Assembly: GCA_964016885.1 (NCBI GenBank)
Contig: OZ024745.1
Coordinates: 34,720,001-34,784,000, forward strand
Direction of reading: 5' to 3'
DNA length: 64,000 bases
Source of the DNA: Eledone cirrhosa
Lineage: Eukaryota
In this document: positions 463-49,268 of the stretch, piece after piece
Layout: each line of letters begins with the position of its first letter
Position numbering within the stretch: position 1 is the stretch's first letter
Made by a program: the position numbers and the translations under genes
Notes under the pieces: model-generated
Database searches by the model: none
What the model was told of the DNA's origin: nothing
The model's input: the letters and a program-made list of their open reading frames with translations, nothing else

Positions 463-1176
463 TAAATTATATTAAAAGACAACTTACCTTGTGGAACACC
501 GGAAGGTTTTTTTTTCTTCAAAAACTTAAGAGCTCCTCCATTTTGGGAAACACGGAGCTAGAGCATCTTTCTATTACTTGGAGATATATATCTATATGTA
601 TTTATCTATGTTTGTTATTTATCTATGTTTGTTATAAGAGTTGTGTATGGAACATACCAATCAGTAAATGGTGGTGCAATTAGATTTCATTACTCAACGT
701 TATGTTACTTTTTACTATCCAATTCTATAATTTCAAAAATTGTTATTTAGTATCTTCTATTCTCAACTTATTAACCTATTCTATAGCATTGGCCGAAAAA
801 GCAACACCAACTAAATATAGCAGCTGTTTTAGACTCTACAGTCTTTTTTTTTATCACTTCTTACTATCCAATTTTATATTTCTATATATCTTTCTCTTAT
901 TTTTTTATTGTCTCCTAATCTCAATTGATTTACTTATTCTATAACGTCCCTCCTCTATTTTATCCAAAACCCTTTTTCGCCTTTTCATCTGGCCTATTTT
1001 CATACACAACCCTTAGAATTTGCTGTATAGATTCCACTTTCAATGCTTGACCGGCTCCACCCACTCCCTTATTGTTCTACAGGCAAGTTCAGCCTCCCCC
1101 ATGATAGACTTAACTGTGTTTTCAACAAATTTTGACCAATCCTTTTGACAACTACAATCTTCCCATATAAGGAAGT

Positions 1177-1272
1177 ACCCTTTGAAAAGTTTGGCTATTT
1201 ATTTACCAGGCTAAAAATTCTAATTTAGTCCAGAAATAGCCGTCGAAAAGGCTTGAGCCCTGCCTTCGGGGT
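1177..1272 (+). ncRNA. Type I hammerhead ribozyme, U3-A8 core variant
   Basis: Stem I accct(1177-81)/ggggt(1268-72); core TTGAAAA(1182-88); stem II G1189-C1244 plus ggctattt(1193-1200)/aaatagcc(1234-41); GAAA(1245-48); stem III aggc/gcct; UC cleavage site at 1266-67. Followed shortly by (TA)n. Confidence 0.7.
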
Positions 1273-1304
1273 CATATATTTTCCTATATATATATATATA
1301 TATA

Positions 1305-1691
1305 TGAAAAGTGTGATTTACTACACAAAACGAAGGTTATAGAGAAAATTGGGGTTGGTAATGGCACATGGAATATATAAGAGACAGAATACTTTTTTGT
1401 GAAAAAACATAATTTTATAAGGTAAGGAAATAATAAAGGGTATAAAAAATGACCGGTTTCGATGGGTCTGCAAAAGCCATCTTTTCAAATGTTGATTAAT
1501 ATTAAGAAAAATTAATAATAAGAAGAGTTAAAATTTGAGATTTGAAAATTCAAGTATAAAATTCATTGTGGGATTTCACAGTAGTTTTCATCTTGGTAGC
1601 AGCTCGTTGACTGCAACAATAATAATTAAGGCACCCAGCAGTCAACGAGCTGCTACCAAGATGAAACATTGTGCCATTACCAACCCCAATT

Positions 1692-1742: not shown

Positions 1743-2283
1743 AAAATTGAATTAGAAGATGTTGCCATAATTCTGACTAAATAAAATAGTCTAATAATAA
1801 CAGAGCATATAAACCAACTGAATGGAAAAAGATGGGCATCAGCATAATTCAATTTTCAAATGCTGCTCAGTTTTCTAAACATACGATATATATATATATA
1901 AATCTTTTTCTATTTCTTACACTCAGTAAAATCCTGTTATTCACTGTAAAATTCTTTAGCTCTTCAGGAATTTTATAATGAAAGAGAAAACAACATTTCT
2001 TAATCGTGTTTAATGTGGCATAAATTAGAGGTAAGTTCTTTGACCATATGATATTTCGTCGCCTAATTTTGATTCCTGCAACAAATCATTTCCATTAGAA
2101 TGGTTTTGATAACATCCTTGGGAAAGAGCCAAAAATTATAATGTTCCAGTATCCATCTTCTAAAAGCATTTAAAGATCTTCCTCATGCCACTCAAAAATT
2201 ATCATTACTATCACCAGCACCATCATTATCATCAGCATAATTATTATTGTTGTTTTTGTTGTTGTTATTATTACTATTATTAA

Positions 2284-2387
2284 GGGCGGTGGATTGGCAG
2301 TATCGGTAGAGGGTCGGACGCCATGCTTTCCAGCATAGTTACGTCCCTTTACGATCTGAGTTCAAATCCCGCCGAGGTAGAAACAAT
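2284..2387 (+). mobile_element. tRNA-derived SINE family A, internally deleted
   Basis: Head ggcggtggattggcagtatcggtagag and B-box gagttcaaatcccgcc joined directly to the tail gtagaaacaattat. Confidence 0.8.
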
Positions 2388-2706
2388 TATTACTATTATT
2401 ATCATTATTGTTTCTTCCCTCAGCATCTAATGCTGGAGATGTATTACAGTGTTAGCTGTTCATTACCAGTGAACTGAGGTAACACCCCTTATTTTTCGAG
2501 TACCCTCTGGTGTAAAAGGGGACTGGGGTAATGTTCTTTAACTAGCCTCAGAAACTTGTCAAGATAGTACCTAGTGCTCCTATGATGATAGGCACAACCT
2601 TGAGAGTCTCAAATCCTTTTCAGTTCCCACTTTAGATCCTGGTACAGATTAATTTTCTCTTTATCCTTTTCTTGCTCTCGTTATTAATAATAGCAGGTGG
2701 ATTTAT

Positions 2707-3330
2707 GGCGGTGGATTGGCAGTATCGGTAGAGGGTCGGACACCATGCTTTGACGCACAGAGTTACGACACTTGCCATTCTGAGTTCAAATCCCGCCGAG
2801 GTTAACTTTGCCTTTCATCCTTACGGGGTCGATAAAATAAAGTACCAGTAATGCACTGGTTAATTGCTGGCCTTGTGCCAAAAGTAGAAACAATTATTAT
2901 TAATAGCACCGTGGTCAACTTTGCCTTTCATCCTTACAGGGTCAATAAAATAAAGCACCAGTAATGCACTGGGGTAATTGTTGACCATGTGCCAAAAGTA
3001 GAAACAATTATTATTATTATTATTATTATTATTGTTGTTATTATATGACAGATGTAAAATGATGATGATGATGATGATGATGATAATATTACTATTATTA
3101 TTATTGTTGTGGCTGTGGATTGGCAGTATTGGTAGGGCGTTGAACAATGGGGTTTGCCGCATAGAGTTTTGGCCCTTCACATTCTGCGTTCAAATCCTGC
3201 CAAGGTTAACTTTACCTTTTAGCCTTACAAGATCGATAAAATAAAATAAAGTACCAGTAATGCAGAGGGATCGATTTAATCGACTTTTCCTTCCATCAAA
3301 ATTGCTGGCCTTGTGCCAATAGTAAAAATC
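2707..3330 (+). mobile_element. Cluster of SINE family A copies (tRNA head plus Meta-like core)
   Basis: Full copy 2707-2895, partial copy 2911-3008, diverged copy 3110-3330. The core aactttgcctttcatccttacggggtcgataaaataaagtaccagt resembles the MetaSINE central domain. Confidence 0.85.
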
Positions 3331-5473
3331 ATTATTATTGATCCGGTTCTTTATTCACTGAGTTCATATCCTGCTGAAATCAACTTTGCCTGTTATCCTA
3401 CTGGGGCCAACAAAATAAACAATCAGTCAAGTACTGCGATCAATATAATCAACTTCTCCATCCCACTACAAAAATGTTTGTCCTTGTGTCTGAATTTGAA
3501 ACTGTTCTTATTTATATTTAAAATTAAGTTTAATCCGTTATATTATGATTTTAAATCCATCCCAAGTCCAACGTTTACTTTGCCTTTCTTTCCTCTTGGA
3601 TCAATAAAATAAATTCTAGTCCGATACTTGGAGTAAATTAACACTGAAATTACCCTGCCTCATTTAAAATACTTGGACTCTTCCAATGCAAGAAATCCTA
3701 ACTAAGCAATATATAACTGTATAAAATTATGATATTGAAACATCATTATGGTTATATTGTTATTGTTGTTTTACACTTTCTCATTAGATTCCAGTAGCTT
3801 TTCTCCAGGGAACGGGGAGGAGAGGAGATATAAGAGTATATATTTCTTGATATGTAATGAGTTTCTTAATTAGTTTATCAGTAGGTTTTGATACCAATCA
3901 GTAACAAATGACAATCTAGAAGAGAGGCATACTTTATGACTGTGTTCTTTCTGTCAGTTAGGAGTAATGATGCCCTTGAGACAAAACAAATTGTGTTGAT
4001 GTGTATAGCTACTAGAGACCTAACACAAGTGATGTTTATCTCTTCCTATCTCTCTTTCTTTCTAGCAATACTTTGCCTTTGATAAATAATATTAAATTAT
4101 GCTTTTGTTTAGCTGCAGATAAGCTCTGATCTAGCAGATTTATTATCAAATGTATTCCAGCAATGACCAACAACAACATAAGTGTTTTAAGGTCATATTT
4201 CTTGTTAAAGCAAGGGTTAGCCTTGTGGGATACTTGGCAGGCCACATAAACATCATGGCGTCATTTTTGAATCAATCTTTTATAGCCAGATACCCTTCCT
4301 AGTACCAACACATTTAGTTGCCTCTTATAACATAGGAATATGGTGTACCTATTCTAAACCAAATGACTATTCCATCTTATATATCTTAGACAACCCCATT
4401 ATATGTTACATCTTTTTCTTTTTCAAGATGGAGCATCAAGGATATAAGAAAATTTTGGTTTCTGTTTCTACTACTTTTGGCCAATACTGGAACATTTAAT
4501 GAGGCAAATTGGCAGACTTGTTAAAGCTTTGCGTAAAACACTTTGTAATATTTCCTTCAGCCCTCTGTATTCTGGGTTCAAATCTCGCTGATGTTAACTT
4601 TGCCTTGCATCCTTTTGGGGTTGCTAAAGTACTAGTTCAAGGTGGTGGTCTGGCAGAATTGTTAAAGTATCTGTTTTGTCTAAGTGCATTCTGAGTTCAA
4701 ACTGTGCCTACAGTTACAGAAAACAGTAAACCTGTCAGTAAAATACTCAAGACTCCTATGGGATGCAGACTTGTTGGAGAATAGCTAATACTCTAAATTT
4801 GTTGCTATAATGTGTGAACTATCATAGCAACAAATACTGGAAAGTTTTATAGCAATGAAACTTGCTTTTTCAGAATATTTTTTCAATAAAGTATGCTCAG
4901 TACTCCCTAAAGTGATTAAAGACTGAATAAAGACAATGTAGGGTAAAGAAAATGGTTTTTCTAGTGCTGGTACTATAATAAAAGACATCCAGTACACTCT
5001 GTAAAGTGGTTGTTGCTAGGAAGGGTATCCAATTGAATATATGAGTGTGGCATGGTCCTTTGAACTATCAAGGAAAGCAAGGCAATAACTGACTCAGATT
5101 ATAACAATTTATCCAACCTATGTCAGCATAAAGGATAATGATTATGTATAAGGACCAGAAAGGTCTTTGATAGCTTTGAAGAAATTTATGATGATAAACC
5201 TTTGAGCCAGGAAATGATTCTGTACTGCTGCTATGAGATTGTATTTCACCCTTAAAAAAACACAATATCCAAACCTACATGGTGAGTAGCCACCAAATCT
5301 TCCCCAAATAACACAATATTGTTATAAAAATAGGACACGTTAGATAATGTAATTCTGCATATACAAAACACAAGATGATCATGAATGAAGTACCATTGAT
5401 TATATACCTGTATTATCAGGTTTAAGCTGGTGTTAATAATACTTCCCATATGTGCAATTGATACATTTCTTTC

Positions 5474-12960: not shown

Positions 12961-15025
12961 ATCATCATCCTCATCATCATCGTTTAACATCCATCTTCCA
13001 CACAAGCATGGGTTTGGACGGGAATTGTCCCACTTGAGGCAAGATTGGTTGTCTTGCTCAGGACTGTCTGGCAGGTTTTCTACGGCTGGATGCCCTTCCT
13101 AACACCAACCACGTTTACAGTGTGGACTGGGAGGTTTTTACCGTGTTACCTACATGGCCACATTACAGCGTGGACTGTGTGTTTTTTTGTTGTGACACCT
13201 ACTCGACCTCATTTATTTCGGACTGGATGTTGTGGTACCAACATAACTTTACATTGAAAGGGGTGGTGTAGATGGCGGTGGGGGTAGGGTTAGTGGGACA
13301 GGGGTGTATTTTGGTTAAGAGGTGCCTACTGACTGTAGGTTTCGCTTTGTACTTAGGCAAGGCGAGTCTTCTGTATGACTGTGTAGCGCCAAAGATCTCG
13401 ACCCAGTGACATTGTCTTGGAGAGGTGTAAGTGTGTGAGGTCGGATTTTATCAAGTCGTCCCAGGTTTTTCTGGGTCTGCCTACTTCATAGCTACCATCT
13501 GTTTTGATCGCCCTGCACTTTTTTATACAGCTGTCATCTTTCATGCGCATCACGTGACCATACCAACGTAGTCTTCTCTCGAGTAAACAGCATCTAATCC
13601 CTCTTATTCCTAATTTCTCACTTAGTTCATTTATGTTTTGTCATTCGTGTATGTTACTATTACACATCCAACGGAGCATGCAAGCTTCGTTCCTCTCCAG
13701 TCTGCGTAGATCCTCTGCACACAAGTCCCATGTCTCACTGCCATGTAACATCGCTGTTCGTATGCAGGCATCATACAGCCTGCCTTTTATTTTTAGAGAG
13801 AAACCTTTAGCGGCCAATAGTGGTATAAGCTCTCTGAACTTTTTCCATCCCATTCAGACTCTAGCTACAGTACTTTCGGAGCACCCTCCACCACTGCTGA
13901 TTTTGTCACCCAGGTAACGGAAGGTGTCCACTATTTCTATAGAACCATCTGGGCAATGGATTGAGCTAGTATTCTGTGGGCATTTGCTGCTACTTATTGC
14001 ACCAGAGCACCGGCCACATATAAAATCTATATTCTTAGTTAGCTTACCTGTGATCCCACTACATCTTTTATGAACCCATACTTTGCATTTGGGACATAAA
14101 ATGGAGTTTCTGCCTACTTCTTTCCTACACACTGAGCATGGCCATTTCCCAGATGGGACCAGTGCCCTATCCTCCTTCCTACATATTAGGACTTTAGTCT
14201 TAGACAAGTTAACTTTAAGGCCTTTTGATTCTAGGCCATGCTTCCATGTTTGGAATTTCTTCTCTAGTTCAGCCATTGATTCGGCTATGAGCGTTAGATC
14301 ATCTACATATAGAAGTTCCCATGGGCAGCCGGTCTTGAACTCTCACAAGCCATTCATCTACACCTAGTTTTCTAAGAGCCTACCAGATAATGGAACGGGG
14401 GACTCTGTCGAAGGCTTTCTCCAAGTCGACAAAAGCTAAGTAGAGGGGTTTACTTTTAGCTAGGTACTTCTCCTGTAGTTGTCATACAATGAAAAGCGTC
14501 TGTGGTACTTTTACCTGACACAAACCCGAACTGCATTTCATCTAGATCAATTCGCTCTCTGATTAGTTGCGCTATTATTTTTTCTGTGACCTTAATGACC
14601 TGGTCAATTAATTTAATGCCTCTATAGTTTCCCCTATCTAGAGCATCTCCTTTACCCTTGTAGCAGTTAATGATGATGCTGCTACACCAGTCCTTTGGTA
14701 CGACCCCATTCTGTATAACTTGGTTTACTATCCAGGTGACCATAGTGTGTTCCACCGTTCCAGATGCTTTCAGCATTTCAGCAACTATTTCTGAAGGCCC
14801 AGCCGCCTTGCCCGTCTTCATATCTTTGATTGCCTTACTTATTATACTACCTTCAACTTGCACTGCTGGTCCCTCTATTGGATCGATGTGGGGGAGACTG
14901 TCTTTCTCCCATTTATTCTCCTCATTTAGTAGCCTTTCGTAGTGACACTTCCAAGCTACCTTCTTATCAGTGTCAGTGATGGCAAGTACACCATCATCAT
15001 TACGGAACACCATCATCATTACGGA
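12961..15025 (-). mobile_element. 5'-truncated RTE-clade LINE with RT, Cys-rich insert, C-terminal domain and (GAT)n tail
   Basis: ORF fragments 14456-15100 (MKTGKAAGPSEIVAEMLK..YKGKGDALDRGNYRGIKL..QFGF), AFVDLEKAFDRVPR, LLYVDDL, 13854-14276 (KVNLSKTKVL..FRYLG), 13641-13853 (MLHGSETW) and 13353-13553 (GRPRKTW); the 3' UTR ends in aaacgatgatgatg. Confidence 0.92.
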
Positions 15026-15048
15026 ATATATATATATATATATATATC

Positions 15049-15445
15049 CAGGGTGGGTAAAATTCCCGAGATCCATGGACGAGTTCTCTCCAGCAGTCAC
15101 TGTCCCTCATAATCGTTGCCATGTCCTGCATCTCCAATAGACTGGTTTCTCTCGTTAGGACATCAACGTATGTCAACCTTAGTCTCCCTCTTCTAGTGTG
15201 TCCGTGCAGGGGCTCCCACAGGAGAACTGAGTTCAGTGTCATCTCTGGATGCTGGTGAGCATGTCCAGCTAACCTGTCTCCTCTGTGCTACTTTTGAGGT
15301 GACGTTTGGGAGGCTTCAGTACAGCTCTGAGTTCTTCATCCTCAGTGTATACTGATTAATGTTCAGAGCCATCCTCAGAATTCTTCTATAGCATGCATCC
15401 ACCATCTGAGTGAGTTTTTTGGTCAGTGTCCAAATCTTAGACCCA
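15049..15445 (-). mobile_element. Second LINE 3' ORF remnant (RTE-like, different family)
   Basis: Minus strand reads YGSKIWTLTKKLTQMVDACYRRILRMALNI...LLWEPLHGHTRRGRLRLTYVDVL..WRELV; bounded by (TA)n. Confidence 0.75.
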
Positions 15446-48990: not shown

Positions 48991-49042
48991 CTCTGTATGT
49001 GTGTGTGTGTGTGTGTGTGTTTGGGTGTTATATATATATATA
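48915..49042. repeat. (CT)n, (GT)n and (TA)n microsatellites
   Basis: Directly visible. Confidence 0.95.
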
Positions 49043-49159
49043 TAGGAAAATGTAAGACCCCGACGGCAGAGCTCAAGCCGTTTCGACGGCTATTTCTGGA
49101 CTAAGAAATAGCCGTCGAAACGGCTTGAGCTCTGCCGTCGGGGTCTTACTTTTTCCTAT
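49042..49159. mobile_element. Short fold-back made of the 3' half of the HHR family seen at 1177-1272
   Basis: 56-bp arms 49042-49097/49104-49159 with loop ggacta; GAAA-cggc-ttgagctct-gccg-TC-gggg present, CUGA half missing. Confidence 0.85.
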
Positions 49160-49268
49160 TTCCCACTCTACTACCCTAAGTATTGAATATTCTGGTGCGT
49201 TATGGTCCATCTGGTTCCTTACCACAATTCCTTTGTTATATATATATAAAACCAAAGAAAAATATAAG

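What the first reader, a model, noticed from the sequence alone, without database searches (positions are those of the whole stretch)
1177..1493. Two unrelated, adjacent hammerheads with the compensatory U3-A8 core (UUGAAAA)
Seen: 1177-1272 (+) and 1446-1493 (-) both have TTGAAAA exactly where CUGANGA belongs, followed by a G10.1-C11.1 stem II, GAAA, stem III and a UC site, yet their stems share no sequence. Known: C3-G8 is a tertiary Watson-Crick pair, and U3-A8 is a permitted, uncommon natural covariant. Inference: the double change in two families suggests selection for activity rather than decay. Standard CUGANGA searches would miss these ribozymes.
Basis: partly seen in the sequence, partly recalled or inferred. 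Interest (0 to 1): 0.75.

Follow-up and report, generated by a model that had tools for sequence, protein, structure and literature searches.

The report
Variant hammerheads of two Penelope retrotransposons
Two unrelated Penelope-type jumping genes sit end to end, each carrying a hammerhead RNA motif, predicted to cut itself, with an already published U-A core pair; one lineage also multiplied for a long stretch of its history with that pair mismatched and then restored it, so the pair likely helps but is not required for these elements to spread.

Summary
Both motifs are real type I hammerheads (core-pair-free descriptor: 2 hits in the window, 0.01 per shuffled window). They are the end repeats (pLTRs) of two unrelated Penelope-like retrotransposons: an older Hydra-clade copy (705-1287, +) and a young Neptune/Nematis-type copy (1305-1614, -), which likely landed in the first copy's (TA)n run. 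U3-A8 is the family state in both, not decay, and it is published for Penelope-like elements (Cervera and De la Pena 2014). In the Hydra family exact counts are U3-A8 1084, C3-A8 mismatch 475, C3-G8 6, U3-G8 2. An ORF tree places the mismatch subfamilies between older and younger U3-A8 subfamilies (AU p=2e-6), while 0 of 13 other core positions changed. The motif is under selection, but a Watson-Crick 3-8 pair was dispensable for spreading. Cleavage is not shown: no RNA data, no cut-site scars in 27 copies, and both window copies are predicted to misfold alone.

The parts
705..1287 (+). 5'-truncated 3' end (3' UTR and pLTR) of a Hydra-clade Penelope-like element (family 1, old UUGAAAA subfamily)
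   Evidence: 84-90% identity over the whole stretch to 9 longer copies; in several of these (e.g. L074, L075, L080, L081) it follows the RT-GIY-YIG ORF; repeat coverage starts at about 700
1177..1272 (+). HH1: type I hammerhead, U3-A8 core 1182-1188, long stem II, 5-bp stem III (with A15.1-U16.1), predicted cut between 1267 and 1268
   Evidence: family alignment
1170..1285 (+). Distal extension of stem I (AGGAA 1170-1174 with UUCCU 1281-1285)
   Evidence: 4 of 5 pairs invariant in the 7 of 8 representative copies that cover it; pair probabilities 0.5-0.8
1286..1304 (.). (TA)n run at the end of the family-1 copy; likely insertion target of the family-2 copy
   Evidence: sequence; both families end in (TA)n in most aligned copies lacking or carrying the tail
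1305..1614 (-). 5'-truncated pLTR of a young Neptune/Nematis-type Penelope-like element (family 2), with the optional 36-nt tail at 1305-1340
   Evidence: 98% identical to the pLTRs of the pLTR-ORF-pLTR copy L073; 40 of 40 scored genomic matches 99-100% identical
1446..1493 (-). HH2: minimal type I hammerhead, U3-A8 core 1488-1482, palindromic ACCGGU stem III (dimer type), predicted cut between 1451 and 1450
   Evidence: 2079 exact-flank copies, first 100 listed all UUGAAAA
1637..1700 (+). Inverted, internally deleted 5' partner of the family-2 copy (1637-1666 joined to 1670-1700, the tail-less end), followed by (TA)n; it lacks the hammerhead
   Evidence: inverted repeats I3 and I4; blast to L073

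Best explanation
The two motifs are U3-A8 type I hammerheads in the end repeats of two unrelated Penelope-like retrotransposons that lie tail to tail, likely because the younger one inserted into the (TA)n run of the older one. In full-length elements the motif sits in both pLTRs (shown); in family 2 the predicted cut lies 176 nt before the ORF's first in-frame ATG (shown in L073). It likely trims tandem or read-through transcripts slowly, as a dimer and with help from the element's own protein (inferred from PMC4209133 and PMC11167929). Cutting is likely helpful but not required for copying: family 1 kept spreading through at least two subfamilies with a C3-A8 mismatch and then returned to U3-A8 (shown by counts and tree; root inferred from copy ages). 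The window copies themselves are truncated remnants.
For: Family 1 ORFs carry Hydra-clade motifs and family 2 ORFs carry DKG, CX4CxxC and CCHH (definitions); the two proteins share only 25% identity over 75 aa. Tandem and inverted pLTRs, a 36-nt tail and (TA)n targets are present. Ages differ: the best family-2 copies are 99-100% identical to the window copy, family-1 copies 86-92%. Family-1 exact counts: U3-A8 1084, C3-R8 481 of which C3-G8 6, U3-G8 2; reversed-pattern controls 0. Across 7 subfamily majorities 0 of 13 core positions other than 3 and 7 vary, 1 of 30 proximal stem positions, 13 of 33 loop II and 16 of 40 flank positions. ORF tree of 48 copies: old U3, C3 and young U3 in a ladder; one U3 clade rejected, p-AU 1.9e-6; terminal branch length falls along the ladder (Spearman -0.74; means 0.048, 0.034, 0.016). 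An older sister of family 2 (831 copies) keeps the core with U7 instead of A7 and A17 instead of C17: 82 of the first 100 are U3-A8, 0 are C3-G8. Published: HHR mutants do not affect insertion in vitro and cleavage needs the PLE protein (PMC11167929, passages).
Against: No cleavage data. Copies starting at the predicted cut: 0 of 27 unselected family-1-like pieces (one at +2) and 0 of 2 family-2-like pieces. Both window motifs are predicted to prefer other folds: HH1 stems I and III pair with probability about 0.17; HH2 hammerhead fold +7.2 vs -9.0 kcal/mol as monomer and -5.9 vs -24.1 as dimer. Stem covariation in 8 representatives does not beat shuffles (1 two-sided change, 107 of 500 shuffles as high). 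The tree groups were named after a first tree and the root is inferred, not outgroup-based.
Confidence: 0.8

Rival explanations
1. The hammerhead-shaped RNA is kept as a binding or positioning element for the element's RT-endonuclease (or as a promoter/UTR signal) and no longer needs to cut.
For: 475 C3-A8 copies in expanding subfamilies; a natural CUGANAA candidate was judged inactive in a co-transcriptional assay (PMC8490949, passage); unprocessed RNA is the dominant insertion substrate in vitro (PMC11167929); no scars in 27 pieces.
Against: The catalytic positions G5, A6, A9, G12, A13, A14 and H17 are exactly those conserved while N7 took all four bases; the youngest subfamilies restored the Watson-Crick pair.
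Confidence: 0.12
2. The C3-A8 subfamilies were passive: mobilised in trans or processed by U3-A8 partners in mixed dimers, so the mismatch says nothing about tolerance.
For: L114 carries a U3 5' pLTR and C3 3' pLTRs in one locus; loop III contains a palindrome that would allow mixed dimers.
Against: C3-A8 copies carry long ORFs of their own (L115, L116) and form the backbone from which the youngest U3 subfamilies descend (100/100 support). L114's U3 may be a private C>T change.
Confidence: 0.05
3. The two adjacent ribozymes form one functional unit (for example cutting convergent transcripts).
For: They lie 174 nt apart and share the rare core.
Against: Different clades and ages; opposite strands; unrelated stem III palindromes; among the other 29 family-2 loci only 2 hold a family-1 piece within 1.5 kb, at varying distance and orientation; U3-A8 is common in this genome (four families seen), so sharing it is expected.
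Confidence: 0.02
4. Decayed C3-G8 hammerheads with chance double mutation in these copies.
For: The window HH1 copy has private changes (1181, 1192, 1259).
Against: C3-G8 is 6 of 1567 counted family-1 copies and 0 of the first 100 family-2 copies.
Confidence: 0.01

Closest known systems
U3-A8 minimal hammerheads of Schistosoma mansoni Cercyon PLEs (Cervera and De la Pena 2014, PMC4209133; parts 1-2 of 4 of the text read)
   Same: Type I hammerhead in pLTRs, U3-A8 core, G10.1-C11.1, palindromic stem III, mostly solo truncated copies, close pairs on opposite strands 100-700 bp apart
   Different: HH1 has a 5-bp stem III and a long stem II with a 33-nt loop; neither motif has the extra base between A9 and G10.1; a C3-A8 subfamily is not described in the parts read
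Hydra-clade PLEs and their hammerheads, incl. Hydra-1_Obim (Craig et al. 2021, PMC8557442; section 11, passages, supplement part 2 and passages read)
   Same: RWK-like, DKT, CxCX5C, no CCHH, CxxC/CxH, (TA)n targeting, 3' hammerhead
   Different: All 26 Hydra rows of File S2 have CUGANGA (found with a canonical descriptor); family 1 has A8 throughout, a far longer stem II and a length of about 3.5 kb; its hammerhead does not match Hydra-1_Obim's
PAc (Poseidon of Anolis) hammerhead (Frangieh et al. 2024, PMC11167929; passages read)
   Same: pLTR hammerhead, optional 30-40-nt tail
   Different: PAc has C3-G8 and its ORF starts in stem II; family 2's ORF starts 176 nt after the cut; activity was measured for PAc, not here
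Natural U3-A8 hammerheads of Perreault et al. 2011 (PMC3088659; passages read)
   Same: Same covariant, stated there to be active in vitro
   Different: Not presented there as PLE pLTRs in the passages read

Membership tests
Type I hammerhead ribozyme | Three-helix junction with YUGANRA, GAAA and UH in type I order | tested here: met
   (HH2 stem III only as a palindrome; stem I weak)
Type I hammerhead ribozyme | Watson-Crick pair between positions 3 and 8 | tested here: met
   U3-A8 in both window copies; not met in 475 family-1 copies with C3-A8
Type I hammerhead ribozyme | Rfam hammerhead model match | tested here: not met
   none among 11 matches at E<=10 in 1100-1600
Type I hammerhead ribozyme | Stem covariation | tested here: inconclusive
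   stems nearly invariant; one two-sided change (15.2-16.2 C-G to A-U) in 8 rows, not above shuffles; 5 genomic copies carry it
Type I hammerhead ribozyme | Self-cleavage 3' of H17 | not testable with these tools
   no assay; no cut-site scars in 27+2 pieces
Penelope-like element (EN+) | Single ORF with RT and C-terminal GIY-YIG in longer copies | tested here: met
   Pfam RVT_1 E=1e-5 (below gathering) for family 2, no Pfam hit for the two family-1 RT-EN proteins; the endonuclease was read from motifs
Penelope-like element (EN+) | Tandem/inverted pLTRs and optional 30-40-nt tail | tested here: met
   family-2 tail 36 nt
Hydra clade (family 1) | RWK motif and DKG modified to DKT | tested here: met
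   RWR and SDKT in L115
Hydra clade (family 1) | CxCX5C linker, no CCHH, CxxC and CxH around E and N | tested here: met
   L109, L110, L116 proteins
Hydra clade (family 1) | Placement in the Hydra clade of an RT tree | not tested
   reference proteins were seen only as supplement text and were not aligned
Neptune/Nematis (family 2) | DKG, GxKF, CX2-5CxxC linker and CCHH | tested here: met
   L069, L073 proteins
Neptune/Nematis (family 2) | Neptune rather than Nematis by phylogeny | not tested
   no reference tree built
Non-LTR retrozyme | Non-coding tandem repeats of a few hundred bases, one hammerhead per unit | tested here: not met
   both motifs belong to ORF-bearing elements and are not in tandem arrays here; such arrays exist elsewhere in the genome

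The most novel reading that the evidence does not exclude
A Hydra-clade retrotransposon lineage records a hammerhead core crossing a mismatch and coming back (U3-A8 to C3-A8 to U3-A8) while every other core base stayed fixed, because a C.A wobble supports protein-assisted cleavage in vivo: a natural working hammerhead without the 3-8 Watson-Crick pair, with dated subfamilies as ready-made test variants.
Probability: 0.3. Interest if true: 0.62.

Novelty: new member of a known kind. Interest (0 to 1): 0.35.

Why it matters
The U3-A8 hammerheads themselves add two families to a published class. The by-product is more useful: whether PLE hammerheads are needed for transposition is open (PMC8557442, PMC11167929), and family 1 supplies an ordered natural series (UUGAAAA, UUGACAA, UUGAUAA, CUGAGAA, UUGAGAA, UUGAUAA) in a nearly constant scaffold. 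Assaying it would show either that a C3-A8 core can cut with protein help, or that these elements spread without cutting while still conserving the catalytic bases.

Tried and rejected
Rfam on the whole window and on 1100-1600: no hammerhead among the listed matches, only low-complexity hits (129 lower-scoring rows not shown). Public runs: no RNA holder listed, which is no evidence on expression; contigs of unrecorded kind laid on both families show no pile-up at the cut among the best-supported loose ends (12 and 623 rows not shown), and 1 of 8 opposite-strand joints starts at the first base after the family-1 cut, too little to count. Cut-site scars, a lead from earlier notes: 0 of 27. PDB sequence search: nothing significant for either protein. 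First shuffle control could shorten sequences and was replaced. The hammerhead-fold energy for HH2 was invalid (2-nt loop) and was redone. Outgroup rooting was dropped: the other Hydra-like ORFs in hand were only about 33-52% identical and fragmentary. A generic search for C3-A8 minimal hammerheads gave 160 hits (control 27); the 30 loci inspected were scattered variants of U3-A8 or C3-G8 families, segmental duplicates or chance. The competing hairpin over GAAA in family 1 (mean pair probability 0.15-0.48 by subfamily) is noted, not shown to be a switch. Not held, so not read: Przybilski and Hammann 2007, Lunse et al. 2017, Martick and Scott 2006; they may bear on C3-A8 activity and on PLE variants. 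No description of an expanded C3-A8 PLE subfamily or of a return to U3 was found in searches (listings only, apart from the papers named); supplements of PMC4209133 were not opened and may list such variants.

Full report
Observation. Both motifs are in the sequence as described. HH1 (+, 1177-1272) has a 5-bp stem I with a distal extension, the core UUGAAAA at 1182-1188, G10.1-C11.1 followed by a 9-bp stem II with a 33-nt loop, GAAA, a 5-bp stem III and UC at 1266-1267. HH2 (-, 1493-1446) has a weak stem I, the same core at 1488-1482, a 5-bp stem II and the palindrome ACCGGU in place of stem III. A descriptor that leaves positions 3, 7 and 8 free finds exactly these 2 sites in 64 kb, against 2 hits in 200 dinucleotide shuffles, neither U3-A8. 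Rfam misses both. Folding energy alone is not unusual.

What they belong to. Each motif is part of a dispersed repeat in the 3.0-Gb genome G000. HH2's family is young: 40 of 40 scored matches (824 candidates) are 99-100% identical. HH1's family is older: the 39 other full-length scored matches (4006 candidates) are 86-92% identical. [quoted passage not shown] Family 1 has RWR, DKT, a CxCX5C linker, no CCHH, and CxxC/CxH motifs, the features given for the Hydra clade (PMC8557442 section 11). Family 2 has GxKF, DKG, a CX4CxxC linker and CCHH, as in Neptune/Nematis. The two proteins align only over 75 aa at 25%. In the window, family 1 spans 705-1287 and family 2 spans 1305-1614 on the other strand, with its 36-nt tail and a short inverted partner at 1637-1700. 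They meet tail to tail in a (TA)n run. Both families end in (TA)n elsewhere, so the simplest reading is that the young copy inserted into the microsatellite of the old one (inference). The host looks like a cephalopod from a SINE that I recall; this was not tested.

Positions 3 and 8. Family 2: 2079 exact-flank copies, the first 100 listed all UUGAAAA. An older relative (831 copies; ORF pieces 57-68% identical to family 2 in 3 loci) has, among the first 100, 82 U3-A8, 11 U3-G8, 4 C3-A8, 3 others and 0 C3-G8. Family 1, with one fixed flank pattern: U3-A8 1084, U3-G8 2, C3-R8 481 of which C3-G8 6, hence C3-A8 475; 92 of the first 100 C3 copies read CUGAGAA. These are lower bounds, since subfamilies with another base after G10.1 escape the pattern. 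So U3-A8 is inherited, not decay, but no C3-G8 subfamily exists in either family, and a mismatch subfamily is large.

History of family 1. I grouped 150 of 156 collected copies into 7 subfamilies by diagnostic sites (the old group split by base 7; 6 copies left out). Among their majorities 0 of 13 core positions other than 3 and 7 vary, 1 of 30 proximal stem positions, 13 of 33 in loop II and 16 of 40 in the flanks; base 7 takes A, C, U and G. Copies were collected partly by core patterns, so they are not a random sample. A tree of 48 ORF fragments, independent of the hammerhead, is a ladder: old U3 subfamilies, then C3 subfamilies, then young U3 subfamilies nested inside the later C3 group (100/100). 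One clade of all U3 rows is rejected (p-AU 1.9e-6), and terminal branches shorten along the ladder (Spearman -0.74; means 0.048, 0.034, 0.016). Caveats: groups were named after a first tree; 13 labels were set by hand; two UUGAGAA copies that fall among C3 rows were grouped with them, and one CUGAAAA and one UUGAGAA copy with the old group. The step from C3-A8 to U3-A8 in the youngest lineage is well supported. The earlier step from U3 to C3 rests on rooting by age; divergence in the hammerhead region alone does not separate the old U3 and early C3 groups (medians 0.042-0.046 and 0.046). All 26 published Hydra hammerhead rows have C3-G8, so A8 is probably derived.

Mechanism. Shown: motif, position in pLTRs, family states, conservation pattern; in L073 the predicted cut is 176 nt before the first in-frame ATG. 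Inferred: slow, dimer-type and protein-assisted trimming of tandem or read-through RNA, from PMC4209133 (monomer inactive, dimers weakly active) and PMC11167929 (cleavage only with protein; hammerhead mutants do not affect insertion in vitro). ACCGGU in HH2 and GAGCUC in the family-1 loop III are palindromes that fit dimer formation; the window copy has lost the latter. Against easy activity: both window motifs are predicted to prefer other folds, and none of 27 unselected family-1-like pieces starts at the cut; 17 start 27-44 nt before it. A natural CUGANAA motif was judged inactive (PMC8490949, passage). I therefore read cleavage as useful but not essential: strong enough to keep the catalytic bases and perhaps to favour the return to U3, weak enough to let C3-A8 subfamilies spread.

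Comparison with what is known. U3-A8 was reported as a natural covariant in 2011 (PMC3088659) and in PLE pLTRs in 2014, with about 1,300 hits in Schistosoma and close opposite-strand pairs (PMC4209133). The finding as written is therefore a new member of a known kind. I found no printed account of an expanded C3-A8 subfamily or of a return to U3, but three relevant papers were not held and one supplement was not opened. Earlier notes of this scan on other pieces of the same genome report the variant and the mismatch subfamily; I had the counts and the first tree before reading them. Their claim of cut-site scars was not seen in my small sample.

Verdict. Observation confirmed; interpretation partly supported; interest 0.35. 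The most novel reading left open, a working hammerhead without the 3-8 Watson-Crick pair, has probability about 0.3.

Noticed in passing
window 1249 and 1265: The HH1 copy has A15.2-U16.2 instead of the family's C-G. Five genomic copies carry this double change, apparently in different subfamilies, and two of them sit next to an inverted partner with C-G; hairpin-templated correction or template switching is a possible cause.
   Followed up: partly
window 49042-49242: A second family-1 fragment: head-to-head pair that begins in the 3' arm of stem II and so lacks the core; one arm has the long tail.
   Followed up: partly
family-1 loci: 17 of 27 short pieces start 27-44 nt before the cut, at the 3' arm of stem II, often at inversion junctions; this may mark an RT stall or a transcript start.
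   Followed up: no
G000, e.g. C1:5738327-5752443; L187, L209-L221: About 9,700 canonical C3-G8 minimal hammerheads (control 158), the first 100 listed mostly in 466-470-bp tandem arrays of retrozyme type.
   Followed up: no
L055, L111, L134, L184, L218: A third U3-A8 family with a 4-bp stem II, ACCGGU palindrome and UA cleavage site.
   Followed up: no
L222-L251: The older sister of family 2 has 11 U3-G8 copies among the first 100, more than other single changes; subfamily or hotspot not resolved.
   Followed up: no
L061, L069, L111, L166, L194: An abundant relative of family 1 shares stem III, stem I and the tail but differs upstream; its core was not seen in the loci held.
   Followed up: partly
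window 490-570 (-): A stretch with splice-acceptor-like and GTAAG donor-like ends in unique sequence, but with stops in all three frames; possibly a non-coding exon (read).
   Followed up: no
window 2280-3400: Several decayed copies of a tRNA-type SINE-like repeat (read; family name recalled, not tested).
   Followed up: no
window 13857-15106 (-): Fragments of a LINE-type reverse transcriptase ORF.
   Followed up: no
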